Below, piece by piece: positions 33,601 to 58,937 of a DNA stretch of 64,000 nt. A program made the translations under genes and the position numbers. Location: assembly GCF_023055435.1 (NCBI RefSeq), contig NW_025964013.1, positions 5,518,001 through 5,582,000 on the forward strand. Reading direction: 5' to 3'. The notes beneath the pieces are model-generated. The model was not told the DNA's origin and ran no database searches. It was given only the letters and a program-made list of their open reading frames with translations. The DNA comes from Haliotis rufescens (lineage: Eukaryota). Numbering within the stretch: the stretch's first letter is position 1; each line of letters starts with the position of its first letter.

Positions 33601-33857
33601 ACGTTGCTTGTAATGAGCTGTACACCCGTTATACCTTTGGGTCAGATATCACAAGAATAATTATATACAGTGCCATCACCGACAACAATTTCGGTATTAC
33701 AAAGGTAAACACTATCATGTTTATTCTAATTCTCGGGATCACATTGGGAATTGTAGCAATTAAGATCGCGCTCATATTACTGAGGTACAAGACTGACCCG
33801 GTATTCCCATCCGAGAAATATGTCCTCGAGAAGGATACATCCTTGTGCGAGATTTAA
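30671..33857 (+). CDS. Multi-pass membrane protein, paralog 3; coding exons 30671-30773 and 33034-33857
   Basis: Exon 1 (103 nt) reads MKDDHATRSALHAIVVVVFISAAVFGAAFQQGVP, with donor CAG|GTAACA and acceptor TTATAG| at 33033. The phase-1 join gives GLFLAPFQPEMFRT in frame. It is clearly homologous to paralog 2 (CRKGP, WLFLLDRxALELAF, KQGR). Confidence 0.85.
30820..31240 (+). pseudogene. Intronic L1/Tx1-like RT remnant
   Basis: LVHENQTGFIP...ISENTRL and LIDFEKVFDTVS motifs, frame broken. Confidence 0.65.
31659..31918 (+). mobile_element. Family C repeat (intronic)
   Basis: Full-length match to the other family C copies. Confidence 0.8.
32322..32600 (-). mobile_element. SINE family D (intronic)
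   Basis: Reverse complement of the 24418 copy; TSD ctcttccaaga. Confidence 0.88.
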
Positions 33858-36217: not shown

Positions 36218-37180
36218 GTTTTCTTTGTTCACAAGAAACATTCAGAACAGAACTGTATTTTACTCAGGTCGAGAATCTCGGTATTTGGCAGACATTCATG
36301 TCCGTGATTGGCAGACAGTAGTTAACAGGAAAGTATACATATTACATACCAAAAACATCAGAATTTACCTTATTTCTATTAATTGAAATAGGTGTTGAAA
36401 TCATACCACGTTAGCATGTCGTCGCCATTGCCCCAAACTGCACATCAAGATACTCGGGTGAACAATTGACTTGCCTTTGCATGTGTTTGTGACGGGTGCC
36501 ACCGGTGGGGCAGGATACGCATACCTTTTCGCGAACACCTGGTATCATTACTCTTTGATAGTGATTAATAAACACATGCTCATGATATAGTCGGAATTTT
36601 ACAATCGACTCTGCTTAATGCAGTGTTTTCCATTGATTATGGAAAGGGTTTTGTCGCTTTATTTTTATGAATATGGAAATGGTTTTGTTGCTGCTTTTTT
36701 TTTATATGGCGACAAACAATTATAACCATTATAATATATTAAGTAAATAAGTAAACAAACTTTGTGTTATATAACACACATTGTTTTTGTTACTCACTGA
36801 CACAACCCCTTTACTTATCTGAAAGTGACAAACACTTTCCAAATATGAGTCCATTGTTTGGTTCCGACTGTGCCTTGAGCATGTGTTTATGAAGCATAAT
36901 CAAATTGTGAGGATACCAAGTGTTCGTGAAAAAGTGAGCGGGCACCGGTCACAAACACAAACAGTGGCAAATCAATTGATCACGGAAAAATATCAGGCAC
37001 CAATGATTAGTTCACAGGCTGTTTATTTAATCATAAACACGAAACACAATGTAGACAACGAAACGAAATGAGTGACGTTCAGTGCAGTAATCTAATTTTA
37101 TCAATTTATATAGCGCTGAAGTTTCTGAGTACCTGTTCACAGGCGCTTTTAGTTCCCCGACCAGTGAATCCGTTTGTATT

Positions 37181-37470
37181 ACCGCCTCCGTGGTCTAGTG
37201 GTAGAGCGATCACCCGGAGAGAGCAAGGTCCGGGGATCGATCCCCGGCCTTGTCATATCGAATATACGTTCAAAGATGGTACTTGTTGTTACCCTGTCTG
37301 GGGCTCGGCATTAAGGGGCAAAAACAAGGACTGGTCTGTTCGAAGTCAGTATACTGTGTCTGAGTGGGGTATTCATGTTAAACTGCGACATGGTATATCA
37401 GGGTGCTAGCTGTATAAAATCGGCATTTGTATATAAGTGCAATAATCTTGGACGCGACGTTACACCTCAC
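37181..37470 (+). mobile_element. SINE family B (copies at 44824-45112 and 52522-52812)
   Basis: Family B sequence carried within the triplicated unit. Confidence 0.8.
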
Positions 37471-38739
37471 ATCCAGTTATCGTTCTCAACTCCCTGGGGA
37501 GTATGCACACCTGTGCAGTCAGTCGGGTGCTAGACATTTGCACGCAAATCACCATCTCTTGCCTGCGTGGACGCCTCGCTATCAACACCGTCACCACGTG
37601 ACCATCATGTGACAGGAAGTTACTAAACGGTTTGATGTGAGGTTCCTATCAACAGAGTTAGGAACGTCATGATGACATTGCTTCATCAACATAACTGCTG
37701 ATCAATCAAACACGGCTTCACTTCCACAGCTAAATGTGCTCAGTGATGTGTGGATTCCAGAAGCGTGAGGGTATCTTGGATTACTGCTTGTTTAGCTGGA
37801 CATAATCCAACATGAGATTGCACATATTGTACCCATGTGGGGAATAGAACCCGGCCCGCGAACGCTTTAACCTTCAGGCTACCCTACCGCCAATCACGAA
37901 GTGAAGACAAAACACAAATTGCTGGAACATCAGTTTATTTACATTTAGGTATAGGAAGGAGAAGAATCTATATCCAACTGATATGTAACATTTTGTGTAC
38001 AACCGTGATAATTGATAATTGTGCATACTATTAATATTGACAGTACCTTCGCAGAGAATCTTAACTAAACTGTTACCAAGGGCAACTGATGCCCTGTTAA
38101 CCATTATAATCGATCTACCACACACAGGGGTTGAACTTGGATTCCCCTCCATACCAAGACACTATTTCACCGAGTTCCGTATGCAGTGGAGATGTTGCGA
38201 CGTCCGCTAAAATATAAAAACAAAACTGTGTCTGAAATTACGCTGGTGGTAAGTCATGGATTGTTGTATACCTACTTGATTGGGCACAAAGGGCCCATGT
38301 CGTGGCGTCAGGCAATAAATACTTACATTTCTATGCAAATTGTTTGAATGGCGGATGCTTACCCTTTTCGGTAGCACCAGTGGTCATCCCTAATTTTCAA
38401 TTGTTCATTCATATAATTTTCAAATGGAATCTGTTTCGTTGGATAATCCGGTTATTCTCTTGCATTGACAATTTATATTTGTGAACTAATTGAATTACTC
38501 TATATGGGCATCAACATATTGGTGTTAAATTTACTGGCAAAGCCATAAATACTCTATAAGTCGTTGTTTAACATGGCGCTATTTCAGCTGTCTGAATTGT
38601 TTGAACTGATACACTGATGCAAGTATTGTTTAGATAATGTGTTGAAACAGAAACAGTTCTATCCAATTTACGAAAGGAATGTGTTTGCCGGCATCACAAT
38701 TATGTAAACATTTGCAATAAGGTCTGAGGCTTACCTGTA

Positions 38740-39781
38740 TTAACCTGAACAGCAGGTATACGAGCCCACATAGTCTGCAACAAGAAGATTGTCACATTTC
38801 GCCGCCAGCGTCCCAGTACTACACAGTGAAGCCACTAGGTCGCTGCGGACACATCGTTGCGTGCACCCAGTTACTGAAATCAAGATAAAAAACAATTCAA
38901 TAAACACCAGTATGCATTCAACATTCTCACTGTAAGACTTCTACCTCTCAAAGGAACACTTCTCTATTGTGAAATACCTACAGGCCTACAGTTCTAAATA
39001 AGTGTCATGAAACCAAAACCATTTATAAGATTATATTTGAGATTATGACCTGTCTTATTGCACCACACCAAGGCTCTTAATATCATTACACGTGGAACAA
39101 ATACTAGTGTATCGAAGACCGACCCAACACAAACGTCTCCACGTTTCTAAGGACTCAAACCATCTGACATAATGTCTACATGTACAGCATTGATATCAAG
39201 GGAAAGGAAAGGTTCATACAGAAGGTTTTATCCGCGACTGTCGGCATTGTTGATTCTGCTGGTGGTGGGGTCGGTGGTGCTGTGGTCGGTGGTGGGGTCG
39301 GTGGTGCTGTGGTCGGTGGTGGAGTCGGTGGTGCTGTGGTCGGTGGTGGGGTCGGTGGTGCTGTTGTCGGTGGTGGAGTCGGTGGTGCTGTGGTCGGTGG
39401 TGGGGTCGGTGGTGCTGTTGTCGGTGGTGGGGTCGGTGGTGCTGTGGTCGGTGGTGGGGTCGGTGGTGCTGTGGTCGGTGGTGGAGTCGGTGGTGCTGTG
39501 GTCGGCTCTGGTTCCTTTGATTTGGGTTTCCTTGATTTGGGTTTCCTTGATTTTGGATTCCTTGACCATGGTTTCCTTGGTCCTCGTGTCTGCTTCCCGG
39601 GGTTTCGGACTGGTGCGGGTCCTGACGCTTGGTTGACTTGACAGTAGTCAGAATAGTACTTTTTAGCCAGTGTACACATGAAGTTAATATCGTATTTGTC
39701 GACGTATGTCGGACGTCCATGCGAGTACGATAGTTGGACTGAGCACGCGAACAGCAGGAGAACAAGCACGAAGGACGCCAT
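38740..39781 (-). CDS. Secreted Pro/Thr-rich, cationic-repeat, 6-Cys-domain protein, copy A (231 aa); exons 39781-39220 and 38873-38740
   Basis: Signal peptide MASFVLVLLLFACSVQLSYS; donor TCT|GTATGA; acceptor ATTTCAG|. The phase-1 join yields LTGCTQRCVRSDLVASLCSTGTLAAKCDNLLVADYVGSYTCCSG-stop. Contains 9 PTTAPPTPP units. Confidence 0.82.
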
Positions 39782-39801
39782 CTTGGATCCAAAGAACAAG
39801 T

Positions 39802-39834
39802 AGTGATATTCTCCTGTCGACATTCTCTTTTATA
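39802..39834 (-). promoter_or_regulatory. TATA box plus Inr core promoter of the secreted-protein gene
   Basis: TATAAAAG (39834-39827) lies exactly 30 nt upstream of the A in TCACT (39804). The TATA box is conserved in all three units. Confidence 0.7.
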
Positions 39835-40438
39835 GACGTGTCCTGAAACACATTTGTCTTATTGCTGACACCGATACAAGTGATAGTCTCTAATCTGTTA
39901 TTGAATGTATCTCACATGTCTTTAATATCAGAGAATTAGAATATTCGGTTACAGAGGTAACCTTCTCAATGGCAAGCACCCAGTAATAGATGCCTATGCG
40001 ATTAATTCATGCAACTTATTAAAAATACAGGAAATTAAGTTAATATGAGAGGATTGTCTTTTGACAACCGATTGAAGATGAGTTAATCGTCAGCATTTGC
40101 TCTTGATGGTAACCTCAATGTTTGACACTAGTTCATAGTTCTCAAAACGAGATACGTCCCTCCATGTGTAATAAAAAGGACAATCAGTCCAAACCCTTCC
40201 ACAATGTCAGCTCAAACGCTAAAACCACATTTTGGGGTTTAGTATTGACTTCGTCGAGCTGGCGGTTCATTTTATCCACATAGTGTCACGTGACACCTGC
40301 CATACTCTACATTCATTTCAAATTAGCTGAATTTCATTTGAGTTACAGTTCAAATTAATATTTCCAATATGTAACTCATTCTAACAAATGATGCGTATTT
40401 GAACCAACTTCAACGTAGCAAAAAGAGGACATAAGATA

Positions 40439-41451
40439 ATCTGGGCAGCAAAAGAAAGTATAGGTATAGGTCGAGTTCCATGATCAACCAGAGTTTGAAT
40501 GAAATTGTGCAATCACAGGTAATGTAAGCTCGAGCAAAACAATGGTGGGGTAAGAAAATTCATTTTCAAAAGTTGTCTGAAATGTCACCAAACAATTGTC
40601 AGACACACTACAAGTTCATTGCCAACACAGTTGCCTTTAATAGCGTGTATGACCTCCAGCTGCCTCAATGAATGCTGTGATACGCCGCCTCATCGATGAC
40701 GTGGACTGTAATCCGTTGCCACTCGTCTCTAAGGACCTGCTGCAATTCTTGTCTGTTGACGGGAGACGGATGGCGTGCTCTAATCTGTCTTTCAGATAGT
40801 CCCACGGCATTGTCGTGTTGAAACAATGTCCCCTGCTGTTGGTTTTGTAAGAACGGAAGCACAACTGGCTGCAACACTTGGTCTCTGTACTGCACAGCGT
40901 TCAGGTTTCCCTGTATAATCACCAACTCAGTCTTCTGATCTCCACAAATACCGCCCCACACCATGACACCTCCCCTGCCGAATGGATGGACCTCTAGAAT
41001 ACACGCCGGAGCCAAACGTTCCCTTCTGCGTCGATAAACTCGTTCACTGCCGTCATTTCGAAACAAGTTAAACCGACTTTCATCAGTAAACAGCACCCGA
41101 CGCCAATTTCTCACTTGCCAGCGTCGAACCTGCCTCGCCCATCGTAGTCTCAGGCGCCGATGTTTAGCAGTCAGTACCATTCCTCGGAAAGAAGTCGTCG
41201 TAGTACTGTACGTTGGCTTATGGGATTTCCAAACGCTGTTGCTGCCGTCGCCGTCGCCGTTACGAATCGGTTTCGCAGGTGAATGAGACGTATCTGACCG
41301 TCTTCCGGTGGTGTTGTCACTCGGGGTCGTCCGGTTCTAGGCCTGTCCTCCCTGTCTGCCTGTACCGTTGAATCAGCCTGGCTACTGTCAGTGGTTTACA
41401 ACCAAACCTTGCAATTTGGACCTGTGTTGCCCCAATTTCGGCCATACCGAT

Positions 41452-41529
<78 letters not shown>

Positions 41530-41825
41530 TCCTGTGACAGTCGTGGTATTTATTTTGTGTGCTTTCGTCAAGTGTGGTTTTACCCTGCAGACGAACGCAT
41601 TTATATAGCTAACATGCACGTGCAGTTTATGCCATAGGCGGGAAACCTGTTTCACCACTTTATTGTCAACGCACGAGCGCCGTCAAAAGTGACGCGCACG
41701 GGTGAGATGTTTTTTGGTACCCGTTCCTAGGCAGTCATATTCCCCATACCCACTTTCCACCAGTTATCGCTGTTTTTTTGGAAAATTACAAATTGCCAAC
41801 CTATACTTTCTTTTGCCGCTTAGTT
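40439..41825 (-). mobile_element. Decayed Tc1 element, unit A copy
   Basis: TIR (a)actnagcggcaaaagaaagtatagg with TA flanks; VLFTDES, VMVWGGI, HDNA; internal deletion; (GA)n expansion. Confidence 0.9.
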
Positions 41826-42919
41826 TACTTAAATGTTTCTACATAATTGTATAGATGCAGATGAACACGCTGATACTGAGATGAATACATAACAGCTAAC
41901 TGTTAAGAACGTGAAACATAATTCTTTTACTCTGTTTCTGAACGCGGCACTCGACATTATTCAAGAAACAGGAAAATTTCATTAAACTTAAATAAAATAC
42001 TGCGTTGGTTCATAATTTTGAATTATGTTCCAAGATTGAAAGTATTGAGGGAAATTAACCAATGTCCAGATACATACGTTAATTAGTAATATATAGTAGT
42101 TTGGATAAAACACTTTAATTGTCAAGCGGGTTAAATGTGTTCTTATTTTCCTGTCAATGATCCAAGTCACTTATTTGAGATGACTTCATGATCAACTGTA
42201 CGATTAATCCCTGGTAGAATGTCAAAAACGGCAGCTTCAGCTCTTTCACAATTTCCGAGGTACAATCGAGCATGCTCCTTGTACCAAGATTCCAAAGAGC
42301 CTGAGACGTTGTTTAATCAAGATTACAGTAAGGCCTCAGTAAAGCTTTCAAAACGTTTTAGTGTTGACATGTTTGTCACTTTCATTCACGCCACTTTGAA
42401 CAGCATTTCATTTTTGTCACGGAAAGGTCTGCGTAATGTGGGAGAAATGCCTGAAGTAATGAAGGTCGTAGACGTTCAGCATTTTAGTGGATTCCATGAG
42501 TACCGTTAGGCACTGGAGAACTTCCCTGGAGGGATGTGACCCTGTGATGATCAGATTCTGAAATGACTGAGGGATGCACCTGTTCACGCGATCTACCAAT
42601 CAATAAGCGGGTATAGAGTTTCTTAATAATGAAAGGTTGTCCAGGCGAACACTGTCCATAGACCTAGTTTCCCTTTGCACTTAAGATTAAATAGTTTGTT
42701 ATTTGTTTTCTATTTATAACTTATTCACTAATTAAGTACTGGGTAACTGATAGCGAGGTCGGGAGCGACATGACAATACTGGTGAGTGACACACTCATAT
42801 GACTAATCTTGTCATCTCATTCTCGCTCACAGTAACGCGGCGAAGCCAGGAAACGTCCAACCATCCTAAAGTAAGTTTATTTATTTAAAATTGGAAATGT
42901 CGAATCGCCAGTTTGTTCA

Positions 42920-43115
42920 TTATGTACTGACAGTTGTCGTCCTCAGTATGATTGACGTTGCTTGTAATGATCGTGTTTATTCTAATTCTCGGGATAACAA
43001 ATTAGATTGTAGCAATTAAGATCGCGCTCATATTACTGAGGTACAAGACTGACCCTATATTCCGATCCACGAAATATGTCCACCAGATGGATACATCCTT
43101 GTGCAAGATTTAAAC
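42920..43115 (+). pseudogene. Duplicated, internally deleted 3' fragment of membrane paralog 3
   Basis: Matches 33565-33857 with an internal deletion. Confidence 0.85.
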
Positions 43116-46100
43116 TTTTGAGACATTCATCTCTTCGGGCTTTCCCCCCACACAAAGCTGACACGCTGTGATATAAGTGGAATACTGTTAAAAGCGGCGT
43201 TAAACCAAACTCACTCACTATCTGGTCCTTCAGGAAAACGATTTTAAAATAGTTCCTTTGATGAATGTATACATCCAGCGTGCTTGCAGGATACGTCCGG
43301 CAATTTCGGACAATACATTAAATAAGGAAAATACAACAAAGCCTTTCTAAGCCAGCAGAAACCGAATAAAAATTACTTATGCTGAAACACTACATACCGC
43401 CACGATTGGTCAAACATTTGTTCATACAGAATGGCATGGTCCGAATCAATCTTCCAATGACAAATTGAGAGAGTCCTGTCAACTTCTCTTGCAGCGCCTG
43501 GCCCAGTTCTGCTAACGTAGCGGATGGCCTTTGACATCGCCGCGCACGTCTCCGGATCATGTCCAAGGCATACTCTGTTGGGGAAAGGTGAAGACTCTGG
43601 CTGGCCATTGCATTCTGGTAATGTTTCGCTGCTTGAGGTACTCAGTTATTTGCGCCTTGTGCGGAGCCGATTGTTAACATTTTGTAACTGCAGAAACCTG
43701 TTCCAAATTCCAAGAAAAGAACTAACGTGTTGCTGTGGATAATAAAAGTTTACAATACCAATTGCTCAGAGCAATTGGACGATTTTCTCTTAAGTGTCAA
43801 AATTAAGAATGACCACATAACAGGGTGCACGGAGGAAGTGCATGGTCCATGTGGAATTTTATGATTTAGTCCCGAAACCGTCCTCTGGTAGTCGTTTTTC
43901 AAAGCCGATCTTTCTTCTGACGACCGATCATGAAAACAACACAGGCGCCGGGACCCCGTTAACAGGAAAAGTATACATATTACATACCAGAAACATAAGA
44001 ATTTACCTTATTTCTATTAATTGAAATAGGTGTTGAAATCATACCACGTTAGCATGTCGTCGCAATTGCCCCAAACTGCGCATCAACGTACTACGGTGAA
44101 CAACTGACTTCCCTTTGCATGTGTTTGTGACGGGTGCCACCGGTGGGGCAGGATACGCTTACCGTTTCGCGAACACCTGGTATCATTACTTTTTGATATT
44201 GATTCATAAACACGTGCTCATGATACAGTCGAAATTCTACAATCGACTCTGCTTTATGCAGTGTTTTCTATTGGATATGGAAAGGGTTTTGTCGCTTTAT
44301 TTTTATGAATATGGAAGGGGTTTTGTTGCTTATGTTTTATATGGCGACAAACAATTATAACCATTATAATATATTAAGTAAATAAGTAAACAAGCTTTGT
44401 GTAGTATAACACACATAATTTTTGTTACTCACTCACACAACCCCTTTACTATGAAAGTGACAAACCCTTTCCAAAATCATGTCAAAAATGAGTCCATTGT
44501 CTGATTCCGACTATGCCTTGAGCATGTGTTTATGAAGCATAATCAAATTGTGAGGATACCAAGTGTTCGTGAAAAAGTGAGCGTGCACCGGTCACAAACA
44601 CAAACATGGGCAAATCAATTGATCACGGAAAAATATCAGGCACCAATAGTTAGTTCACAGGCTGTTTATTCAATCATAAACACGAAACACAATGTAGACA
44701 ACGAAACGAAATAAGTGACGTTCAGTGCAGTAATCTAATTTTATCAATTTATATAGCGCTGAAGTTTCAGAGTACCTGTTCACAGGCGCTTTTAGTTCCC
44801 CGACCAGTGAATCCGTTTGTATTACCACCTCAGTGGTCTAGTGGTAGAGCGTTCGCCCGGAGAGCGCAAGCTCCGGGGATCGATCCCCGGCCTTGTCATA
44901 TCGAATATACGTTCAAAGATGGTACTTGTTGTTACCCTGTCTGGGGCTCGGCATTAAGGGGCAAAAACAAGGACTGGTCTGTTCGAAGTCAGTATACTGT
45001 GTCTGAGTGGGATATTCATGTTAAACTGCGACATGGTATATCAGGGTGCTACCTGTATAAAATCGGCATTTGTATATAAGTGCAATAATCTTGGACGCGA
45101 CGTTACATCTCACATCCAGTTATCGTTCTCAACTCCCTGGGGAGTATGCACACCTGTGCAGTCAGTCGGGTGCTAGACATTTGCACTCAAATCACCATCT
45201 TTTGCTTGCGTGGACGCCTCGCCATCAACACCGTCACCACGTGACCATCATGTGACAGGAAGTTACTAAACGGTTTGATGTGAGGTTCCTATCAACAAAG
45301 TTAGGAACGTCATGATGACATTGCATCATCAACATAACTGCTGATCAATCAAACACGGCTTCACTTCCACAGCTAAATGAGCTCAGTGATGTGTGACATC
45401 ACGGGACATGTTGGATTCCAGAAGCGTAAGGCCATTTTGGATTACTGCTTGTTTAGCTGGACATAATCCAACATGTGATTGCAGATATTGTACTCATGTT
45501 GGGAATAGAACCCGGCCCGCGAACGCTTTAACCTCCAGGCTACCCCACCGGAAATCACGAAGTGAAGACAAAACACAAATTGCTGGAACATCAGTTTATT
45601 TATATTTAGGTATAGGAAGGAGAAGAATCTATATCCAACTGATATGTAACATTTTGTGTACAACCGTGATAATTTATAATTGTGCATACTATTAATATTG
45701 ACATTACCTTCGCAGAGAATCTTAAGTAAACTGTTACCAAGGGCAACTGATGCCCTGTTAACCATTGTAATCGATCTACCACACATAGGGGTTGAACTTG
45801 GATTCCCCTTCATACCAAGACACTATTTCACCGAGTTCCGTATGCAGTGAGTGTTCCGACGTCCGCTAAAATATAAAAACAAAACTGTGTCTGAAATTAC
45901 GCTGGTGGTAAGTCATGGATTGTTGTATACCTACTTGATTGGGCACAAAGGGCCCATGTCGTGGCGTCAGGCAATAAATACTTACATTTCTATGCAAATT
46001 GTTTGAATGGCGGATGCTTACCCTTTTCGGGAACACAAGTGGTCATCCCTAATTTTCAATTGTTCATTCATATAATTTTCAAATGGAATCTGTTTCGTTG

Positions 46101-46398
46101 GATAATCCGGTTATTCTCTTGCATTGACAATTTATATTTGTGAACTAATTGAATTACTCCAAATGGGCATCAAAATAGTGGTGTTAAATTTACTGGCAAA
46201 GCCATAAATACTCTATAAGTCGTTGTTTAACATGGCGCTATTTCAGCTGTCTGAATTGTTTGAACTGATACACTGATGCAAGTATTGTTTAGATAATGTG
46301 TTGAAACAGAAACAGTTCTATCCAATTTACGAAAGGAATGTGTTTGCCAGCATCAAAATTATGTAAACATTTGCAATAAGGTCAAAGGCTTACCTGTT

Positions 46399-47426
46399 TT
46401 AACCTGAACAGCAGGTATACGAGCCCACATAGTCTGCAACAAGAAGATTGTCACATTTCGTCGCCAGCGTCCCAGTACTACACAGTGAAGCGACTAGGTC
46501 GCTGCGGACACATCGTTGTGTGCACCCAGTTACTGAAATCAAGATAAAAAACAATTCAATAAACACCAGTATGCATTCAACATTCTCACTGTAAGACTTC
46601 TACCTCTCAAAGGAACACTTCTCTATTGTGAAATACCTACAGGCCTACAGTTCTAAATAAGTGTCATGAAACCAAAACTCAGTGTGATACCATGCATGTC
46701 CAAATGAGCTGCCATTTATAAGATTATATTTGAGATTATGACCTGTCTTATTGCACAACACCAAGGCTCTTAATATCATTACACGTGGAACAAATACTAG
46801 TGTATCGAAGACCGACCCAACACAAACGTCTCCACGTTTCTATGGACTCAAACCATCTGACATAATGTCTACATGTACAGCATTGATATCAAGGGAAAGG
46901 AAAGGTTCATACAGAAGGTTTTATCCGCGACTGTCGGCATTGTTGATTCTGCTGGTGGTGGGGTCGGTGGTGCTGTGGTTGGTGGTGGAGTCGGTGGTGC
47001 TGTGGTCGGTGGTGGAGTCGGTGGTGCTGTGGTCGGTGGTGGGGTCGGTGGTGCTGTGGTCGGTGCTGGGGTCGGTGGTGCTGTGGTCGGTGCTGGTGGA
47101 GTCGGTGGTGCTGTGGTCGGTGGTGGTGGGGTCGGTGGTGCTGTGGTCGGCTCTGGTTCCTTTGATTTGGGTTTCCTTGATTTGGGTTTCCTTGATTTTG
47201 GATTCCTTGACCATGGTTTCCTTGGTCCTCGTGTCTGCTTCCCGGGGTTTCGGACTGGTGCGGGTCCTGACGCTTGGTTGACTTGACAGTAGTCAGAATA
47301 GTACTTTTTAGCCAGTGTACACATGAAGTTAATATCGTATTTGTCGACGTATGTCGGACGTCCATGAGAGTACGATAGTTGGACTGAGCACGCGAACAGC
47401 AGGAGAACAAGCACGAAGGACGCCAT
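46399..47426 (-). CDS. Secreted Pro/Thr-rich 6-Cys protein, copy B (215 aa); exons 47426-46913 and 46532-46399
   Basis: Same splice sites and intact frame; 7 Pro/Thr units; all cysteines conserved. Confidence 0.8.
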
Positions 47427-48083
47427 CTTGGATCCAAAGAACAAGTAGTTATATTCTCCTGTCGACATTCTCTTTTATAGACGTGTCCTGAAACACATTT
47501 GTCTTATTGCTGACACCGATACAAGTGATAGTCTCTAATCTGTTATTGAATGTATCCCACATGTCTTTAATATCAGAGAATTAGAATATTCGGTTACAGA
47601 GGTAACCTTCTCAATGGCAAGCACCCAGTAATAGATGCCTATGCGATTAATTTATGCAACTTATTAAAAATACAGGAAATTAAGTTAATATAAGAGGATT
47701 GTCTTTAGACAACCGATTGAAGATGAGTTAATCGTCAGCATTTGATCTTGATGGTAACCTCAATGTTTGACACTAGTTCATAGTTCTCAAAACGAGATAC
47801 GTCCCTCCATGTGTAATAAAATGTACAATCAGTCCAAACCCTTCCACAATGTCAGCTGAAACGCTAAAACCACATTTTGGGGTTAAGTATTGACTTCGTC
47901 AAGCTGGCGGTTCATTTTATCCACATAGTGTCATGTGACACCTGCCATACTCTACATTCATTTCAAATTAGCTGAATTTCATTTGAGTTACAGTTCAAAT
48001 TAATATTTCCAATATGTAACTCATTCTAACAAATGATGCGTTTTTGAACCCACTTCAACGTAGCAAAAAGAGGACATAAGATA

Positions 48084-49429
48084 AACTGGGCAGCAAAAGA
48101 AAGTATAGGTATAGGTCGAGTTCCATGATCAACCACAGTTTGAATGAAATTGTGCAATCACAGGTAATGTAAGCTCGAGGTAAACAATGGTGGGGTAAGA
48201 AAATTCATTTTCAAAAGTTGTCTGAAATGTCACCAAAAAATTGTCATACACACTACAAGTTCGTTGCCAACACAGTTGCCTTTAATAGCGTGTATGACCT
48301 CCAGCTGCCTCAATGCATGCTGTGATACGCCGCCTCATCGATGACGTCAGTCTTCCGATGACGTGGACTGTAATCCGTTGCCACTCGTCTCTAAGGGCCT
48401 GCTGCAATTCTTGTCTGTTGACGGGAGACGGATGGCGTGCTCTAATCTGTCTGTCAGATAGTCCCACGGCATTGTCGTGTTGCAACAATGTCCCCTGCTG
48501 TTGGTTTTGTAAGAACGGAAGCACAACTGGCTGCAACACTTGGTCTCTGTACTGCACAGCGTTCAGGTTTCCCTGTATAATCACCAAATCAGTCTTCTAA
48601 TCTCCACAAATACCGCCCCACACCATGACACCTCCCCTGCCGAATGGATGGACCTCTAGAATACACGCCGGAGCCAAACGTTCCCTTCTGCGTCGATAAA
48701 CTCGTTCACTGCCGTCATTTCGAAACAAGTTAAACCGACTTTCATCAGTAAACAGCACCCGACGCCAATTTCTCACTTGCCAGCGTCGAACCTGCCTCGC
48801 CCATCGCAGTCTCAGGCGCCGATGTTTAGCAGTCAGTACCATTCCTCGGAACGAAGTCGTCGTAGTACTGTACGTTGGCTTATGGGATTTCCCAACGCTG
48901 TTGCTGCCGTCGCCGTCGCCGTTACGAATCGGTTTCGCAGGTGAATGAGCCGTATCTGACCGTCTTCCAGTGGTGTGACACTCGGGGTCGTCCGGTTCTA
49001 GGCCTGTCCTCCCTGTCTGCCTGTACCGTTGAATCAGCCTGGCTACTGTCAGTGGTGTACAACCAAACCTTGCAATTTGGACCTGTGTTGCCCCAATTTC
49101 GGCCATACCGATGGCTCTCTCTCTCTCTCTCTGCTCCTGTGACAGTCGTGGTATTTCTTTTGTGTGCTTTCGTCAAGTGTTGCTATACCCTGCAGACGAA
49201 CGCATTTATACAGCTAACATGCACGTGCAATTTATGCCATAGGCGGGAAACCTGTTTCACCATTTTTTTGTCACCGCACGAGCGCCGTCAAAGGTGGCGC
49301 GTACGGGTGAGATGTTTTTTGGTACCCGTTCCTGTGCAGTCATATTCCCCATACCCACTTTCCACCAGTTATCGCTGTTTTTTGAAAAATTACAAATTGC
49401 CAACCTATAATTTCTTTTGCCGCTTAGTT
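48084..49429 (-). mobile_element. Decayed Tc1 element, unit B copy
   Basis: Same TIRs; shares the HDNA-VGLS deletion with the unit A copy. Confidence 0.9.
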
Positions 49430-50523
49430 TACTTAAATGTTTCTACATAATTGTATAGATGCAGATGAACACGCTGATACTGAGATGAATACATAACAGC
49501 TAACTGTTAAGAACGTGAAACATAATTCTTTTACTCTGTTTCTGAACGCGGCACTCGACATTATTCAAGAAACAGGAAAATTTCATTAAACTTAAATAAA
49601 ATACTGCGTTGGTTCATAATTTTGAATTATGTTCCAAGATTGAAAGTATTGAGGGAAATTAACCAATGTCCAGATACATAGGTAAATTAGTAATATATAG
49701 TAGTTTGGATAAAACACTTTTATTGACAGGCGGGTTAAATGTGTTTTTATTTTCCTGTCAATTATCCAAGTCACTTATTTGAGATGACTTCATGATCAAC
49801 TGTACGATTAATCCCTGGTAGAATGTCAAAAACGGCAGCTTCAGCTCTTTCACAATTTCCGAGGTACAATCGAGCATGCTCCTTGTACCAAGATTCCAAA
49901 GAGCCTGAGACGTTGTTTAATCAAGATTACAGTAAGGCCTCAGTAAAGCTTTTAAAACGTTTTAGTGTTGACATGTTTGTCACTTTCATTCACGCCACTT
50001 TGAACAGCATTTCATTTTTGTCACGGAAAGGTCTGCGTAATGTGGGAGAAATGCCTGAAGTAATGAAGGTCGTAGACGTTCAGCATTTTAGTGGATTCCA
50101 TGAGTACCGTTAGGCACTGGAGAACTTCCCTTGAGGGATACGACCCTGTGATGATCAGATTCTGAAATGACTGAGGGATGCACCTGTTCACGCGATCTAC
50201 CAATCAATAAGCGGGTATAGAGTTTCTTAATAATGAAAGGTTGTCCAGGCGAACACTGTCCATAGACCTAGTTTCCCTTTGCACTTAAGATTAAATAGTT
50301 TGTTATTTGTTTTCTATTTATAACTTATTCACTAATTAAGTACTGGGTAACTGATAGCGAGGTCGGGAGCGACATGACAATACTGGTGAGTGACACACTC
50401 ATATGACTAATCTTGTCATCTCATTCTCGCTCACAGTAGCGCGGCGAAGCCAGGAAACGTCCAACCATGCTAAAGTAAGTTTATTTATTTGAAATTGGAA
50501 ATGTCGAATCGCCAGTTTGTTCA

Positions 50524-50810
50524 TTATGTACTGACAGTTGTCGTCCTCAGTATGATTGACGCTGCTTGTAATGAGCTGTACACCCGTTATACCTTTGGGT
50601 CAGATATCACAAGAATAATTATATACAGTGCCATCACCGTAAACAATTTCGGCATGACAAAGGTAAACACTATCATGTTTATTCTAATTCTCGGGATAAC
50701 AATAGGAATTGTAGCAATTAAGATCGCGCTCATATTACTGAGGTACAAGACCCTGTATTCCCATCCACGAAATATGTCCACCAGATGGATACATCCTTGT
50801 GCGAGATTTA
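50524..50810 (+). pseudogene. Duplicated 3' fragment of membrane paralog 3
   Basis: LTVVVLSMIDAACNELYTRYTFGSD...LLRYKT, followed by a frameshift. Confidence 0.85.
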
Positions 50811-53800
50811 AACTTTTGAGACATGCATCTCTTCAGGCTTTCCTCCCACATAAAGCTGACACGCTGTGATATAAGTGGAATATTGTTAAAAGCGGCGTTA
50901 TACCCAACTCACTCACCATCTGGTCCTTCAGGAAAACGATTTTAAAATAGTTCCTTTGATGAATGTATACATCCAGCGTGCTTGCAGGATACGTCCGGCA
51001 ATTTCGGACAATACATGAAATAAGGAAAATACAACAAAGCCTTTCTTAGCCAGCAGAAACCGAATAAAAATTACTCATGCTGAAACACTACACACCGCCA
51101 CGATTGGTCAAACATTTGTTCATACAGAATGGCATGGTCCAAATCAATCTTCCAATGACAAATTGAGATAGTCCTGTCAAATCCTCTTGCAGCGCCTGGC
51201 CCAGTTCTGCTAACGTAGCGGATGGCCTTTGACATCGCCGCGAACGTCTCCGGATCATGTCCCAGGCATACTCTGTTTGGGAAAGGTGAGGACTCTGGCT
51301 GGCCATTGCATTCTGGTAATGTTTCGCTGCTTGAGGTACTCAGTTATTTGCGCCTTGTGCAGAGCCGATTGTTAACATTTTGTAACTGCCGAAACCTGTT
51401 CCAAATTCCAAGAAAAGAACTAACGTGTTGCTGTGGATAATAAAAGTTTACAATACCAATTGCTCAGAGCAATTGGACGATTTTCTCTTAAGTTTCAAAA
51501 TTAAGAATGACCACCTAACAGGGTGCACGGAGGAAGTGCATGGTCCATGTGTAATTTTATGATTTAGTTCCGAAACCGTCCTCTGGTAGTCGTTTTTCAA
51601 AGCCGATCTTTCTTCTGACGACCGATCATAAAAACAACACAGGCGCCGGGACCCCGTTAACAGGAAAAGTATACATATTACATACCAGAAACATAAGAAT
51701 TTACCTTATTTCTATTAATTGAAATAGGTGTTGAAATCATACCACGTTAGCATGTCGTCGCCATTGCCCCAAACTGCGCATCAACGTACTACGGTGAACA
51801 ACTGACTTCCCTTTGCATGTGTTTGTGACGGGTGCCACCGGTGGGGCAGGATACGCTTACCTTTTCGCGAACACCTGGTATCATTACTCTTTGATATTGA
51901 TTCATAAACACGTGCTCATGATACAGTCGAAATTCTACAATCGACTCTGCTTTATGCAGTGTTTTCTATTGGATATGGAAAGGGTTTTGTCGCTTTATTT
52001 TTATGAATATGGAAGGGGTTTTGTTGCTTATGTTTTATATGGCGACAAACAATTATAACCATTATAATATATTTAGTAAATAAGTAAACAAGCTTTGTGT
52101 AGTATAACACACATAATTTTTGTTACTCACTCACACAACCCCTTTACTATGAAAGTGACAAACCCTTTCCAAAATCATGTCAAAAATGAGTCCATTGTCT
52201 GATTCCGACTGTGCCTTGAGCATGTGTTTATGAAGCATAATCAAATTGTGAGGATACCAAGTGTTCGTGAAAAAGTGAGCGTGCACCGGTCACAAACACA
52301 AACATGGGCAAATCAATTGATCACGGAAAAATATCAGGCACCAATAATTAGTTCACAGGCTGTTTATTCAATCATAAACACGAAACACAATGTAGACAAC
52401 GAAACGAAATAAGTGACGTTCAGTGCAGTAATCTAATTTTATCAATTTATATAGCGCTGAAGTTTCTGAGTACCTGTTCACAGGCGCTTTTAGTTCCCCG
52501 ACCAGTGAATCCGTTTGTATTACCACCTCAGTGGTCTAGTGGTAGAGCGTTCGCCCGGAGAGCGCAAGCTCCGGGGATCGATCCCCGGCCTTGTCATATC
52601 GAATATACGTTCAAAGATGGTACTTGTTGTTACCCTGTCTGGGGCTCGGCATTAAGGGGCAAAAACAAGGACTGGTCTGTTCGAAGTCAGTATACTGTGT
52701 CTGAGTGGGATATTCATGTTAAACTGCGACATGGTATATCAGGGTGCTAGCTGTATAAAATCGGCATTTGTATATAAGTGCAATAATCTTGGACGCGACG
52801 TTACACCTCACATCCAGTTATCGTTCTCAACTCCCTGGGGAGTATGCACACCTGTGCAGTCAGTCGGGTGCTAGACATTTGCACTCAAATCACCATCTTT
52901 TGCCTGCGTGGACGCCTCGCCATCAACACCGTCACCACGTGACCATCATGTGACAGGAAGTTACTAAACGGTTTGATGTGAGGTTCCTATCAACAAAGTT
53001 AGGAACGTCATGATGACATTGCATCATCAACATAACTGCTGATTAATCAAACACGGCTTCACTTCCACAGCTAAATGTGCTCAGTGATGTGTGACATCAG
53101 GGGACATGTTGGATTCCAGAAGCGTAAGGCCATTTTGGATTACTGCTTGTTTAGCTGGACATTATCCAACATGAGATTGCAGATATTGTACTCATGTTGG
53201 GAATAGAACCCGGGCCGCGAACGCTTTAACCTCCAGGCTACCCCACCGGAAATCACGAAGCGAAGACAAAACACAAATTGCTGGAACATCAGTTTATTTG
53301 CATTTAGGTATAGGAAGGAGAAGAATCTATATCCAACTGATATGTAACATTTTGTGTACAACCGTGATAATTGATAATTGTGCATACTATTAATATTGAC
53401 AGTACCTTCGCAGAGAATCTTAAGTAAACTGTTACCAAGGGCAACTGATGCCCTGTTAACCATTGTAATCGATCTACCACACATAGGGGTTGAACTTGGA
53501 TTCCCCTCCATACCAAGACACTATTTCACCGAGTTCCGTATGCACTGCAGATGTTCCGACGTCCGCTAAAATATAAAAACAAAACTGTGTCTGAAATTAC
53601 GCTGGTGGTAAGTCATGGATTGTTGTATACCTACTTGATTGGGCACAAAGGGCCCATGTCGTGGCGTCAGGCAATAAATACTCACATTTCTATGCAAATT
53701 GTTTGAATGGCGGATGCTTACTCTTTTCGGGAACACCAGTGGTCATCCCTAATTTTCAATGGTTCATTCATATAATTTTCAAATGGAATCTGTTTCGTTG

Positions 53801-54066
53801 GTTATTCTCTTGCATTGACAATTTATATTTGTGAACTAATTGAATTACTCTATATGGGTATCAACATATTGGTGTTAAATTTACAAGTCGTTGTTTAACA
53901 TGGCGCTATTTCAGCTGTCTGAATTGTTTGAACTGATACACTGATGCAAGTATTGTTTAGATAATGTGTTGAAACAGAAACAGTTCTATCCAATTTACGA
54001 AAGGAATGTGTTTGCCAGCATCAAAATTATGAAAACATTTGCAATAAGGTCTGAGGCTTACCTGTA

Positions 54067-55611
54067 TTAACCTGAACAGCAGGTATACGAGCCCACATAC
54101 TCTGCAACTAGAAGATTGTCACATTTCGTCGCCAGCGTCCCAGTACCACACAGTGAAGCCACTAGGTCGCTGCGGACACATCGTTGTGTGCACCCAGTTA
54201 CTGAAATCAAGATAAAAAACAATTCATTTAACACCAGTATGCATTCAACATTCTCACTGTAAGACTTCTACCTCTCAAAGGAACACTTCTCTATTGTGAA
54301 ATACCTACAGGCCTACAATTCTAAATAAGTGTCATGAAACCAAAACTCAGTGTGATACCATGCATGTCCAAATGAGCTGCCATTTATAAGATTATATTTG
54401 AGATTATGACCTGTCTTATTGCACCACACCAAGGCTCTTAATATCATTACACGTGGAACAAATACTAGTGTATGGAAGACCGACCCAACACAAACGTCTC
54501 CACGTTTCTAAGGACTCAAACCATCTGACATAATGTCTACATGTACAGCATTGATATCAAGGGAAAGGAAAGGTTCATACAGAAGGTTTTATCCGCGACT
54601 GTCGGCATTGTTGATTCTGCTGGTGGTGGGGTCGGTGGTGCTGTGGTTGGTGGTGGGGTCGGTGGTGCTGTGGTCGGTGGTGGAGTCGGTGGTGCTGTGG
54701 TCGGTGGTGGGGTCGGTGGTGCTGTGGTCGGTGGTGGAGTCGGTGGTGCTGTGGTCGGTGGTGGGGTGGGTGGTGCTGTGGTCGGTGGTGGGGTCGGTGG
54801 TGCTGTGGTCGGTGGTGGGGTCGGTGGTGCTGTGGTCGGTGGTGGAGTCGGTGGTGCTGTGGTCGGTGGTGGAGTCGGTGGTGCTGTGGTCGGCGGTGGG
54901 GTCGGTGGTGCTGTGGTCGGTGCTGGTGGAGTCGGTGGTGCTGTGGTCGGTGGTGGGGTCGGTGGTGCTGTGGTCGGTGGTGGAGTCGGTGGTGCTGTGG
55001 TCGGTGGTGGGGTCGGTGGTGCTGTGGTCGGTGCTGGGGTCGGTGGTGCAGTGGTCGGTCGTGGTGGAGTCGGTGGTGCTGTGGTCGGTGGTGCTGGGGT
55101 CGGTGGTGCTGTGGTCGGAGGTGGTGGGGTCGGTGGTGCTGTGGTCGGATGTGCTGGGGTCGGTGATGCTGTGGTCCTTGATTTGGGTTTCCTTGATTTG
55201 GGTTTCCTTGATTTGCGTCTCCTTGATTTGGGTTTCCTTGATTTGGGATTCCTTGATTTGGGTTTCCTTGATTTGGGTTTCCTCGATTTTGGATTCCTTG
55301 ATTTGGGTTTCCTTGATTTGGGATTCCTTGATTCGGGATTCCTTGATTTGGGATTCCTTGATTTGGGTTTCCTTGATTTGGGTTTCCTTGATTTGGGATT
55401 CCTTGACCATGGTTTCCTTGGTCCTCGTGTCTGCTTCCCGGGGTTTCGGACTGGTGCGGGTCCTGACGCTTGGTTGACTTGACAGTAGTCAGAATAGTAC
55501 TGTTTAGCCAGGGTACACATCGTATTTGTCGACGTATGTCGGACGTCCATGCGAGTACGATAGTTGGACTGAGCACGCGAACAGCAGGAGAACAAGCACG
55601 AAGGACGCCAT
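54067..55611 (-). pseudogene. Secreted Pro/Thr-rich 6-Cys protein, copy C; frameshifted by an 11-nt deletion; exons 55611-54581 and 54200-54067
   Basis: gaagttaatat is missing at about 55520 relative to A and B, giving ...VDKYDVYPG-stop (TAA 55506-55504). The downstream frame is open, with 15 basic pentapeptides, 20 Pro/Thr units and an intact Cys exon. Confidence 0.75.
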
Positions 55612-56058
55612 CTTGGATCCAAAGAACAAGTGGTGATATTCTCCTGTCGACATTCTCTTTTATAGACGTGTCCTGAAACACATTTGTCTTATTGCTGACA
55701 CCGATACAAGTGATAGTCTCTAATCTGTCATTGAATGTATCTCACATGTCTTTAATATCAGAGAATTAGAATATTCGGTTACAGAGGTAACCTTCTCAAT
55801 GGCAAGCAGTCCAAACCCTTCCACAATGTCAGCTCAAACGCTAAAACCACATTTTGGGGGTAAGTTTTGACTTCGTCGAGCTGGCGGTTCATTTTATCCA
55901 CATAGTGTCATGTGACACCTGCCATACTCTACATTCATTTCAAATTAGCTGAATTTCATTTGAGTTACAGTTCAAACTAATATTTCCAATATGTAACTGA
56001 TTCTAACAAATAATGTGTATTTGAACACACACACACAGCAAAAAGAGGACATAAGATA

Positions 56059-57219
56059 AACTGAGCGGCAAAAGAAAGTATAGGTCGAGTTCCATGACCG
56101 ATAAAAAAATAACATGAAGAGGTTTTGTTGTGAATTATAATATAATCTAGGGAGGGGTAACAAATGATTGATCAACCACAGTTTGAATGAAATTGTGCAA
56201 TCACAGGTAATTTAAGTTCAAGTTAAACAATGGTGTGGTAAGAAATTTCATTTTCAAAAGTTGTCTGAAATGTCACCAAAAACTTCAATAGTGTGTATGA
56301 CCTCCAGCTGTCTCAATGCGTGCTGTGATACGCCGCCTCATCGATGACGTCAGTCTTCCGATGACGTGGACTGTAATCCGTTGCCACTCGTCTCTCAGGG
56401 CCTGCTGCAATTCTTGTCTGTTGACGGGAGGCTGATGGCGTGCTCTAATCTGTCTGTCAAGATGGTCCCACAGATGTTCAATAGGATTCATATCGGGTGA
56501 GTGGGAAGGCCGGGACAAAACGTCAGCGTTCTGCTGGTTTAGAAAGTTCCGAGTCAGTCTTGCAGTATGGGGCCTGGCATTGTCGTGTTGAAACAATGTC
56601 CCCTGCTGTTGGTTTTGTAAGAACGGAAGCACAACTGGTTGCAACACTTGGTCTCTGTACTGCACAGCGTTCAGGTTTCCCTGTATAATCACCAAATCAG
56701 TCTTCTGATCTCAACAAGTACCGCCCCACACCATGAAAACCTCCCCTGCCGAATGGATGGACCTCTCGAATACACGCCGGAGCCAAACGTTCCCCTTTGC
56801 GTCGTCAAACTCGTTCTCTGCCGACATTTCGAAACAAGTTAAACCGACTTTCATCAGTAAACAGCACCCGACGTCAATTTCTCACTTGCCAGCGTCGAAC
56901 CTGCCTCGCTCATCAGGCGTCGATATTCAGCAGTGAGTACCAATCCTCGGAACGAAGTTGTTGTAGTACTGTACGTTGGCTTATGGGATTTCCCAACGCT
57001 GCTGTCGCTGTCGCCGTCGCCGTTACGAATCTGTTTCGCAGGTGAATGAGCCGTATCTGACCGTCTTCCAGTGGTGTTGTCACTCGGGGTCGTCCGGTTC
57101 TAGGCCTGTCCTGTGTCCTCCCTGTCTGCCTGTACCGTTGAATCAGCCTGGCTACTGTCAGTGGTGTACAACAAAATCTTGGACCTGTGTTGCCCCAATT
57201 TTGGCCATACCGATGGCTC

Positions 57220-57274
<55 letters not shown>

Positions 57275-57559
57275 TCCTGTGACACTCGTGGTATTTCTTT
57301 TATGTGCTTTCGTCACGTGTGGTTATACCCTGCATTTATACAGCTAACATGCACGTGCAGTTTATGCCATAGGCGGGAAACCTGTTTCGCCATTTTATTG
57401 TCACCGCGAGAGCGCCGTCAAAGGTGGCGCTTACGGATGAGATGTTTTTTGGTACCCGTTCCTAGGCAGTCATATTCCCCATACCCACTTTCCACCAGTT
57501 ATCGCTGTTTTTAGGAAAATTACAAATTGCCAACCTATACTTTCTTTTGCCGCTTAGTT
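56059..57559 (-). mobile_element. Decayed Tc1 element, unit C copy (most complete catalytic region)
   Basis: TIRs; HDNARPH...SPDMNPIEHLWD retained; frameshifts upstream. Confidence 0.9.
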
Positions 57560-58937
57560 TACTTAAATGTTTCTAACAAATTGCATAGATCCAGATGAAC
57601 ACGCTGATACTGAGATGAATACATAACAGCTAACTGTTAAGGACGTGTAAAATCATTCTTTTATTCGGTTTCTAAACGCGGCACTCAATTTTATTTAGGA
57701 AACAGGAAAAATTCATTAAACTTAAATAAAATACTGCGTTGGTTCATAATTTTGAATTATGTTACAAGATTGAAAGTATTGAGGGAAATTAACCAAGAAA
57801 GACCGTCACCAATGTTCAGATACATACGTAAATTAGTAATATATAGTAGTTTGGATAAAACACTTTTATTGACGGGCGGGTTTAATGTGTTCTAATTTTC
57901 CTGTCAATGATCCAAGTCACTTATTTGAGATGACTTCATGATCAACTATACGATTAATCCCTGGTAGAATGTCAAAAACTGCAGCTTCAGCTCTTTCACA
58001 ATTTCCGAGGTACAATCGAGCATGCTCCTTGTACCAAGATTCCAAAGAGCCTGAGACGTTGTTTAATCAAGGTTACAGTAAGGCCTCGGTTAAGCTTTCA
58101 AAACGTTTTAGTGTTGACATGTAGGGGTCATTAGCAAATTCAGAAACAAAAATGGATGTCTGATCCAATTCTTTATTCTAACTATGGTTCGTGTTTTGTT
58201 CTTCTGGTTAACAACTGACTTGCTTTGGTATGTGTTTACGTCGGGTGCCACCGGTGAGGCAGGAAAGGCACACCTTTTGGAAAGTGATGCATAAACACAT
58301 GCTCATGATATAGTCGACATCGTATTATCCACTCTGACTTTGGCAGAGTTTTGATAAAAAATAGAAAGGGGTTTGTCACTTTCATTCCCGCCACTTTGAA
58401 CAGCATTTCATTTTTGTCACGGAAAGGCCTGCGTAATGTGGGAGAAATGCCTGAAGTAATGTAGGTCGTGGGCGTTCAGCATTTTAGTGGATTCCATGAG
58501 TACCGTTAGGCACTGGAGAACTTCCCTGGAGGGATACGACCCTGTAATGATCAGAAATGACTGAGGGATGCACCTGTTCACGCGATCTACCAATCAATAA
58601 GCGGGTATAGAGTTTCTTAATAATGAAAGGTTGTCCAGCCGAACACTGTCCATAGACCTAGTTTCCCTTTGCACTTAAGATTAAATAGTTTGTTATTTGT
58701 TTTCTATTTATAACTTATTCACTAATTAAGTACTGGGTAACTGATAGCGAGGTCGGGAGCGACATGACAATACTGGTGAGTGACACATTCATATGACTAA
58801 TCTTGTCATCTCATTCTCGCTCACAGAAACGCGCCGAAGCCAGGAAACGTCCAACCATGCTAAAGTAAGTTTATTTATTTAAAATCAGATTTGTTAAATC
58901 GCCAGTTTGTTCAATGTGTAATGAACCATCTGAAACA

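What the first reader, a model, noticed from the sequence alone, without database searches (positions are those of the whole stretch)
39260..55410. Two independently varying coding repeat arrays across the three paralogs
Seen: Pro/Thr units number 9, 7 and 20, and basic pentapeptides 3, 3 and 15, in copies A, B and C. All changes within the arrays are in frame (27/30-nt and 15-nt units), while the signal peptide and Cys exon are almost invariant. Inference: stalk length and net charge vary by slippage or unequal crossover, so the locus may be hypervariable between individuals.
Basis: partly seen in the sequence, partly recalled or inferred. Interest (0 to 1): 0.7.

Follow-up and report, generated by a model that had tools for sequence, protein, structure and literature searches.

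The report
Abalone mucin-like genes with slipping repeats
Three side-by-side copies of an abalone gene for a small, likely secreted, positively charged mucus-type protein differ in two repeat tracts exactly as reported, but the copy with the longest repeats is frameshifted in this sequence, and the length differences are likely ordinary repeat slippage.

Summary
The counts are right: Pro/Thr units 9/7/20 and basic pentapeptides 3/3/15. A and B equal public Haliotis rufescens proteins; both introns are spliced in 2 probable RNA runs. The genes are a derived, internally shortened branch of an uncharacterised family found only in Haliotis: signal, 12-Cys basic domain, acidic Thr/Pro stalk, 6-Cys tail. 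The window branch lost about 125 residues of that domain, gained an SRKPK-type array and became cationic (+12 versus -5 to +4). C's long basic array occurs in other runs and, with 8 units, in an intact H. cracherodii orthologue, so it is no assembly artefact. Non-repeat coding DNA is no more conserved than the intron, and a non-coding (CT)n in the same duplicated unit varies as much (37/9/25). Best reading: slippage in a young tandem array of a mucin/glue-like protein, as in Drosophila Sgs genes. Variation between individuals and function are untested.

The parts
39220..39781 (-). Copy A coding exon 1: hydrophobic leader (about 20 aa), 2-Cys remnant, linker, basic array, Pro/Thr array
   Evidence: spliced product identical to P0025, 231 aa
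39521..39565 (-). Copy A basic array, 3 x 15 nt (SRNPK, SRKPK, SRKPK)
39260..39502 (-). Copy A Pro/Thr array, 9 x 27 nt (TTAPPTPPP)
38735..38873 (-). Copy A exon 2: 6-Cys C-terminal domain, stop 5 nt before the next donor
37923..38206 (-). Copy A non-coding exon 3 (ends approximate)
   Evidence: by homology to copy C exon 3
46913..47426 (-). Copy B coding exon 1
   Evidence: spliced product identical to P0011, 215 aa
47166..47210 (-). Copy B basic array, 3 x 15 nt
46953..47147 (-). Copy B Pro/Thr array, 7 units (2 x 30 nt, 5 x 27 nt)
46394..46532 (-). Copy B exon 2: 6-Cys domain
54581..55611 (-). Copy C exon 1, frameshifted: open for 35 codons from the leader ATG
55504..55520 (-). Copy C frameshift site (11 nt fewer than A; likely loss of one unit of a 14-nt duplicate) and premature stop
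   Evidence: the 14-nt duplicate is inferred from the protein P0010 only
55182..55406 (-). Copy C basic array, 15 x 15 nt, out of frame with the leader
   Evidence: C-type unit junctions in runs X7, X11, X15, X16
54621..55175 (-). Copy C Pro/Thr array, 20 units (5 x 30 nt, 15 x 27 nt), out of frame with the leader
54062..54200 (-). Copy C exon 2: 6-Cys domain
   Evidence: splice joints 54200>54581 (380 nt) and 53565>54062 (496 nt) in X15 and X16 laid on C; they may come from A or B transcripts
53282..53565 (-). Non-coding exon 3 (3' UTR with AATAAA)
36321..58924 (.). Three tandem duplication units of about 7.6-7.7 kb, each with one gene copy, Tc1-like fragments and a (CT)n tract
41454..41527 (.). 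Non-coding (CT)n used as internal control: 37 units in A, 9 in B (49115), 25 in C (57223), 38 in the out-of-window copy A'

Best explanation
Copies A and B are intact, spliced abalone genes for a small, likely secreted, mucin- or glue-like cationic protein, and their repeat counts likely differ by ordinary slippage and unequal crossover after recent tandem duplication, while copy C is frameshifted in this sequence. Shown: gene structure, counts, frameshift, splicing, family, charge. Inferred origin: the branch arose from a Haliotis family (leader, 12-Cys basic domain, acidic Thr/Pro/Glu stalk, 6-Cys tail) by an internal deletion that left only the last two-Cys helix of the N-domain, followed by growth of an SR(K/N)PK array and loss of acidic residues. 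Inferred mechanism: the Pro/Thr tract would be an extended, O-glycosylated spacer; the polycation patch would bind polyanions (sulphated mucus glycans, surfaces or microbes); the disulfide-bonded tail would be the conserved binding or assembly head. Because both arrays are disordered and made of whole codons, unit gains and losses would be tolerated and mostly neutral. C's break is best explained as loss of one unit of a 14-nt tandem duplicate that its H. cracherodii orthologue appears to keep, i.e. the same slippage acting on a unit that is not a multiple of three.
For: Counts and frames. A and B identical to P0025 and P0011. Both introns spliced in 2 of 2 probable RNA runs of organism A, one study. 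Family: 11 paralogs at G000:C235:4.04-4.15 Mb, 10 with the whole N-domain, and homologs only in Haliotis. Window-type proteins form one clade (99/97) inside the family, and both outer groups carry the N-domain. Net charge of mature A and B +12, P0010 +20, six full-length proteins -5 to +4. 6-Cys exon dN below dS in 8 of 8 pairs, ratio about 0.3-0.6, few changes. No excess conservation over intron. Non-coding (CT)n varies 38/37/9/25 across the same units. An 8-for-11 templated replacement in A gives P0010's residues 1-36 exactly, and removing 14 nt then gives C's first 98 nt. Same pattern (repeat-number variation, premature stops, no clear positive selection) in Drosophila glue genes (PMC6352337, passages).
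Against: Tissue, secretion, glycosylation and binding are untested; no signal-peptide predictor was run. The runs are only guessed to be RNA and come from one study. The frameshift was seen in none of the 4 DNA runs laid: each shows a contig across the site in the A/B form, also X7 and X11, which hold C-type array and flank junctions (contigs drop variants and 14 pieces were hidden). So C may be intact in other animals, or the break may be an assembly error. The 14-nt duplicate is inferred from a protein, not from DNA; a pure duplication from C fits with one mismatch, so the order of events is not proven. Stalks of the 11 distant paralogs are much more uniform (78 aa in 9 of 11), so this branch's arrays are more labile than the family norm.
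Confidence: 0.6

Rival explanations
1. The arrays are a selected tuning device: individuals carry different stalk lengths and charges, and copy C is an on/off allele switched by 14-nt slippage, adjusting adhesion or mucus cohesion.
For: P0010 and C differ in both arrays (8 vs 15 basic units, about 6 vs 20 Pro/Thr units). Basic-array contigs branch in the DNA runs. A run of another organism (X17) skips 39 nt just before the basic array. The motif resembles the Mlig-ap1 peptide SRKPRRKNRKSRKP, which impaired flatworm detachment (PMC6410801, passages).
Against: No allelic counts were obtained; the extreme copy is frameshifted here; a neighbouring non-coding microsatellite varies as much; short K/R/S/P motifs converge easily; Mlig-ap1's vWD, lectin and EGF domains are absent.
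Confidence: 0.15
2. The protein is a cationic defence protein or precursor of Pro/Arg/Lys-rich antimicrobial peptides, with the 6-Cys tail as partner domain (penaeidin-like layout, recalled).
For: Net +12 and a Pro-, Lys-, Arg-rich segment with a Trp next to the basic array; 6-Cys tail.
Against: No Pfam family matched; each RK pair is followed by Pro, which usually blocks convertase cutting (own knowledge); an 80-residue Pro/Thr spacer is typical of mucin-like proteins.
Confidence: 0.12
3. It is a shell-matrix protein of the repetitive low-complexity kind, secreted by the mantle.
For: Leader plus low-complexity repeats in a lineage-restricted family fits the class described in PMC4897951 (passages).
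Against: No tissue data; not Has-vm2 (PMC2034539, passages); no paper held names the 5 accessions or locus ids tried.
Confidence: 0.1
4. The length differences are assembly artefacts.
For: The window lies partly in a 79-kb head-to-tail duplicate that is nearly identical over most of its length and may itself be a false duplication.
Against: C-type junctions of the basic array occur in X7, X15 and X16 (82-nt joined form: 3 mismatches to C, 18 to A or B) and the C-only SRRRK letters in X7 and X11; the orthologue shares the unit order; units carry distinct variants. The 20-unit Pro/Thr count itself was not checked in reads.
Confidence: 0.03

Closest known systems
Uncharacterised Haliotis proteins with automatic RefSeq names (P0025, P0011, P0010; full-length relatives P0005-P0009, P0021; second subfamily P0026, P0027)
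   Same: Same leader, same phase-1 intron position before the 6-Cys tail in the copies examined, same tail; P0025 and P0011 are copies A and B themselves, so they are not independent evidence.
   Different: Full-length relatives carry a 100-150 aa Cys-rich domain and an acidic stalk and are near neutral; the window branch lacks most of that domain, has a basic pentapeptide array and is cationic.
Drosophila salivary glue proteins Sgs1/Sgs3/Sgs4 (PMC6352337, abstract and passages)
   Same: Secreted Thr/Pro repeat proteins rich in cysteine, in duplicated genes; repeat number differs between paralogs, species and individuals; premature stops segregate.
   Different: No sequence homology found for the 6-Cys tail; the RefSeq label 'Sgs-3-like' likely reflects composition only; glue function here is untested.
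[quoted passage not shown]
   Same: Lineage-restricted, duplicated, repeats changing by slippage, domain gain and loss.
   Different: Mantle expression and shell occlusion not shown; different motifs.
Flatworm cohesive protein Mlig-ap1 (PMC6410801, section 5 and passages)
   Same: Lys/Arg-rich repeats with an SRKP motif in the antibody peptide; binds polyanions in the authors' model.
   Different: Mlig-ap1 has 5,407 aa with C-lectin, vWD and EGF domains; the abalone protein has 215-231 aa and none of these.

Membership tests
Molluscan secreted RLCD proteins | Repetitive low-complexity domain | tested here: met
Molluscan secreted RLCD proteins | Signal peptide | tested here: inconclusive
   Hydrophobic 20-residue leader shared with all relatives; no predictor was run
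Molluscan secreted RLCD proteins | Mantle expression or presence in shell | not testable with these tools
   Run tissues are not given
Drosophila Sgs1/3/4 glue proteins | Thr/Pro-rich repeats plus Cys-rich C-terminal part | tested here: met
   against PMC6352337
Drosophila Sgs1/3/4 glue proteins | Sequence homology of the Cys-rich part | tested here: not met
   Profile of the 6-Cys tail gave 8 hits at E <= 0.001; 5 full-length ones are Haliotis, 3 are unrelated repeat proteins matching part of the profile
Drosophila Sgs1/3/4 glue proteins | Repeat-number variation within populations | tested here: inconclusive
Gel-forming mucins and Mlig-ap1-type adhesives | vWD, C8, lectin or EGF domains | tested here: not met
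   0 Pfam families for P0001-P0004, P0010, P0025-P0027
Gel-forming mucins and Mlig-ap1-type adhesives | O-glycosylated stalk; cohesion or adhesion function | not testable with these tools
   composition only
Has-vm2 | Leader plus 5 residues, then 20 Pro-rich motifs with Leu, Ile, Val, Glu | tested here: not met
   PMC2034539 passages
Penaeidin-type antimicrobial peptides (layout recalled) | Match to a curated family model | tested here: not met
   No Pfam match; that Pfam holds such a model is recalled
Any solved fold for the 6-Cys tail | Structural match | tested here: inconclusive
   Model pLDDT 61.9; Foldseek 0 matches; VIA best Z 2.2

The most novel reading that the evidence does not exclude
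An abalone-specific secreted family swapped a folded basic 12-Cys domain for a newly grown SRKPK polycation array, converging on the motif of the flatworm cohesive protein Mlig-ap1; array length sets charge from about +12 to over +40, and a 14-nt slippage switch turns the most charged copy on or off among individuals, tuning temporary adhesion or mucus cohesion.
Probability: 0.12. Interest if true: 0.65.

Novelty: new member of a known kind. Interest (0 to 1): 0.3.

Why it matters
Repeat-number change in secreted Pro/Thr proteins is well known, so the observation itself is ordinary. What has value is the family: an undescribed, Haliotis-only, apparently well-transcribed secreted family of about 20 genome matches with a 6-Cys tail of no known fold, in which one young branch lost its folded basic domain and became a polycation. 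If tied to foot mucus or adhesion it would give a small, tractable protein for testing how charge repeats work in marine temporary adhesion, and a simple PCR marker for repeat and copy-number variation in abalone.

Tried and rejected
Pfam: 0 families for 4 of 4 queries at E <= 1 and for P0010, P0025, P0026, P0027. PDB sequence searches: nothing under E 0.5. ESM Atlas: no usable hit for either domain. AlphaFold2: full-length P0005 pLDDT 42.9, not searched; tail pLDDT 61.9, no Foldseek match, VIA best Z 2.2; no fold claim is made. Has-vm2 and HGAP rejected as identities. No run on record as RNA was listed as holder; X15-X17 are guesses. Contig depths differ among runs (shared part 23, 38, 103, 38; a look-alike locus 13, 25, 34, 17) and might hint at 1.5 to 3 copies, but the tool says depth is no copy number, so it is not used. 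The low depth of the C-type joint in X15 and X16 (22.5 and 74.9 against about 900-2200) would fit decay of a frameshifted message but cannot rank expression. The C-type upstream junction showed in 3 of 4 DNA runs, not X1; absence in contigs proves nothing. The second ATG of C (55550) opens the array frame without a leader but lies behind a strong-context first ATG and inside its short ORF, so it was judged unlikely to be used. Literature: 9 searches found no paper on this family; most were seen as listings only, supplements were not read, and the McDougall 2013 KRMP paper is not held. Earlier-findings look-ups by place and by sequence found nothing. The own genome could not be searched with a profile, so distant paralogs beyond the 20 may exist.
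Full report
1. Observation. The region holds three tandem units of about 7.6-7.7 kb, each with one minus-strand gene. Exon 1 carries a hydrophobic leader, a two-Cys stretch, a linker, a basic 15-nt array and a Pro/Thr array; a phase-1 intron (346, 380, 380 nt) precedes a 6-Cys exon. Pro/Thr units number 9, 7 and 20, of 27 or 30 nt; basic pentapeptides number 3, 3 and 15. The spliced products of A (231 aa) and B (215 aa) are identical to P0025 and P0011, which the source names as Haliotis rufescens proteins with automatic labels; they are the same genes, not independent support.

2. Copy C has 11 nt fewer than A after codon 31 and stops after 35 residues, at 55504-55506, ahead of both arrays. 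In this sequence the longest arrays are therefore not translated with the leader. No C-length protein came up in the searches. A C-type orthologue from H. cracherodii, P0010 (228 aa), is intact: it shares C's diagnostic residues and the order of the first eight basic units, including the rare RNPE unit at place 5, and reads KYD-TTNT-MCT at the break. Modelling shows that replacing 8 nt of A by an 11-nt copy of the adjacent sequence gives P0010's residues 1-36 exactly and creates a 14-nt tandem duplicate; losing one unit gives C's first 98 nt. A duplication that rescues an older deletion fits with one mismatch, so the order is likely, not proven, and the orthologue's DNA was not seen. Against a common break: each of 4 DNA runs from 4 studies shows a contig across the site in the A/B form and none shows a gap, though contigs drop variants and 14 pieces were hidden.

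3. Is it real and expressed? Laid on copy C, 2 of 2 probable RNA runs of organism A (one study) show both introns removed with GT-AG ends (380 and 496 nt), which also reveals a non-coding third exon. One X16 contig crosses the frameshift site in the intact form. A joint that goes back 45 nt in the basic array occurs in X7 (DNA), X15 and X16; the joined 82 nt match C's array with 3 mismatches against 18 for A or B, and the letters of C's unique SRRRK unit occur in X7 and X11. So a long C-type basic array exists outside this assembly.

4. Independence and constraint. Within the window A and B differ only in Pro/Thr units and C is longest in both (r = 0.99, n = 3), so independence is not shown there. 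P0010 (8 basic units, 58-aa Pro/Thr tract against 3 units and 81 or 65 aa) supplies the missing contrast. In-frame change follows from unit lengths of 15 and 27 nt and from period-3 CCA runs, so it needs no ongoing selection; that the units are multiples of three does suggest they arose in coding DNA (2 of 16 other arrays listed have such a period). Non-repeat coding DNA differs by 4 of 387, 7 of 376 and 7 of 376 nt, intron 1 by 2 of 346, 4 of 346 and 6 of 380 (p 0.55-0.79): the copies are simply young. A non-coding (CT)n in the same unit has 37, 9 and 25 repeats, and 38 in a fourth copy. Over longer distances the 6-Cys exon has dN below dS in 8 of 8 pairs (about 0.3-0.6, small counts), and all six Cys are invariant in 9 aligned exons.

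5. The family. The genome has 20 matches to the 6-Cys exon among 22 candidates: 4 window-type, 11 at G000:C235:4.04-4.15 Mb, 5 on C334. The 11 have a Thr/Pro/Glu stalk; 10 carry a whole 150-residue, 12-Cys basic domain after the leader and one is cut at its 5' end. The window genes align to them in the leader and then only in the last 25 or so residues of that domain. The C334 type has a shorter related Cys domain. Homologs were found only in Haliotis (cracherodii, rufescens, asinina, rubra); a profile of the tail against 1.84 billion representatives gave 8 hits, 5 Haliotis and 3 unrelated repeat proteins. In a tree of 13 proteins (74 columns, leader plus tail) the three window-type proteins form a clade (99/97) inside the C235 family; its sister group is unresolved, but both outer groups have the N-domain, so the loss is likely derived. 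Mature A and B have net charge +12, P0010 +20, six full-length proteins -5 to +4, of which the N-domain gives +11 to +17 in five and +4 in one; C's array frame would give +44. No Pfam, PDB, Atlas or fold match was found.

6. How it likely works. Shown: anatomy, splicing, ancestry, charge. Inferred from established behaviour of Pro/Thr-rich tracts (own knowledge): an extended O-glycosylated spacer between a disulfide-bonded tail and a polycation patch that would bind polyanions in mucus or on surfaces. Unit gains and losses in such disordered tracts are tolerated. Drosophila glue genes show the same set of features: repeat-number variation between paralogs and within populations, premature stops, no clear positive selection (PMC6352337, abstract and passages). 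Molluscan repetitive secreted proteins evolve by slippage and domain loss (PMC4897951, passages). The SRKPK motif resembles the Mlig-ap1 peptide SRKPRRKNRKSRKP (PMC6410801, section 5 and passages); I treat this as an analogy, reached through an earlier scan note, not as homology.

7. Context. Window bases 1-45243 are the end of the second copy of a 79-kb head-to-tail duplicate (G000:C235:5405546-5484363 and 5484364-5563243), 99.9-100% identical in 12 of 16 blocks of 5 kb; it holds copy A', with the same 9 and 3 units as A. It may be very recent or a false duplication.

8. Verdict. Observation partly confirmed; interpretation partly supported. This is a new, undescribed member of a known kind (secreted repeat proteins of mucin or glue type with slipping coding repeats). 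No paper on the family was found in 9 searches; supplements were not read and could list these genes. Interest 0.3.

Noticed in passing
G000:C235:5405546-5563243 (covers window 1-45243): 79-kb head-to-tail duplicate, mostly 99.9-100% identical, no gap at the junction; holds a fourth gene copy A' (5477991-5478899). Very recent duplication or assembly artefact.
   Followed up: partly
G000:C235:4043000-4150200 (L001-L012): Cluster of 11 paralogs with a 12-Cys, probably helical, basic N-domain of no known family; one copy (near 4104000) is cut at its 5' end and has a shorter stalk.
   Followed up: partly
G000:C334:51.2 Mb and 54.2-54.4 Mb (L021-L025): Second subfamily with the same 6-Cys tail, whose Thr-rich stalk grows by tandem duplication of whole exon-intron units of about 2.4 kb rather than by repeats inside one exon.
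   Followed up: partly
window 55803-55808: Copy C lacks about 200 nt of upstream DNA present in A and B, some 200 nt before the ATG; the C-type junction shows in 3 of 4 DNA runs.
   Followed up: partly
window 47223-47263 (run X17): A probable RNA run of another organism skips 39 nt (13 codons) just before the basic array and keeps intron 2 in a high-depth contig.
   Followed up: no
window 938-1594 (-), 11111-11449 (+), 33063-33857 (+), 50501-50869 (+): Related ORFs for multi-pass hydrophobic proteins; no Pfam family for the three tested; a fragment was carried into the tandem unit.
   Followed up: partly
window 18473-19300, 40665-41180, 48597-49106, 59289-60309: Tc1/mariner-like transposase ORFs and fragments; 18473-19300 matches DDE_3 and HTH_Tnp_Tc3_2.
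   Followed up: partly
window 25940-28856 (-): Fragments of a LINE-like element; weak RVT_1 match.
   Followed up: no
window 5758-6257, 7007-8178, 9094-10094: Non-coding minisatellites of 32, 31 and 40 nt period.
   Followed up: no
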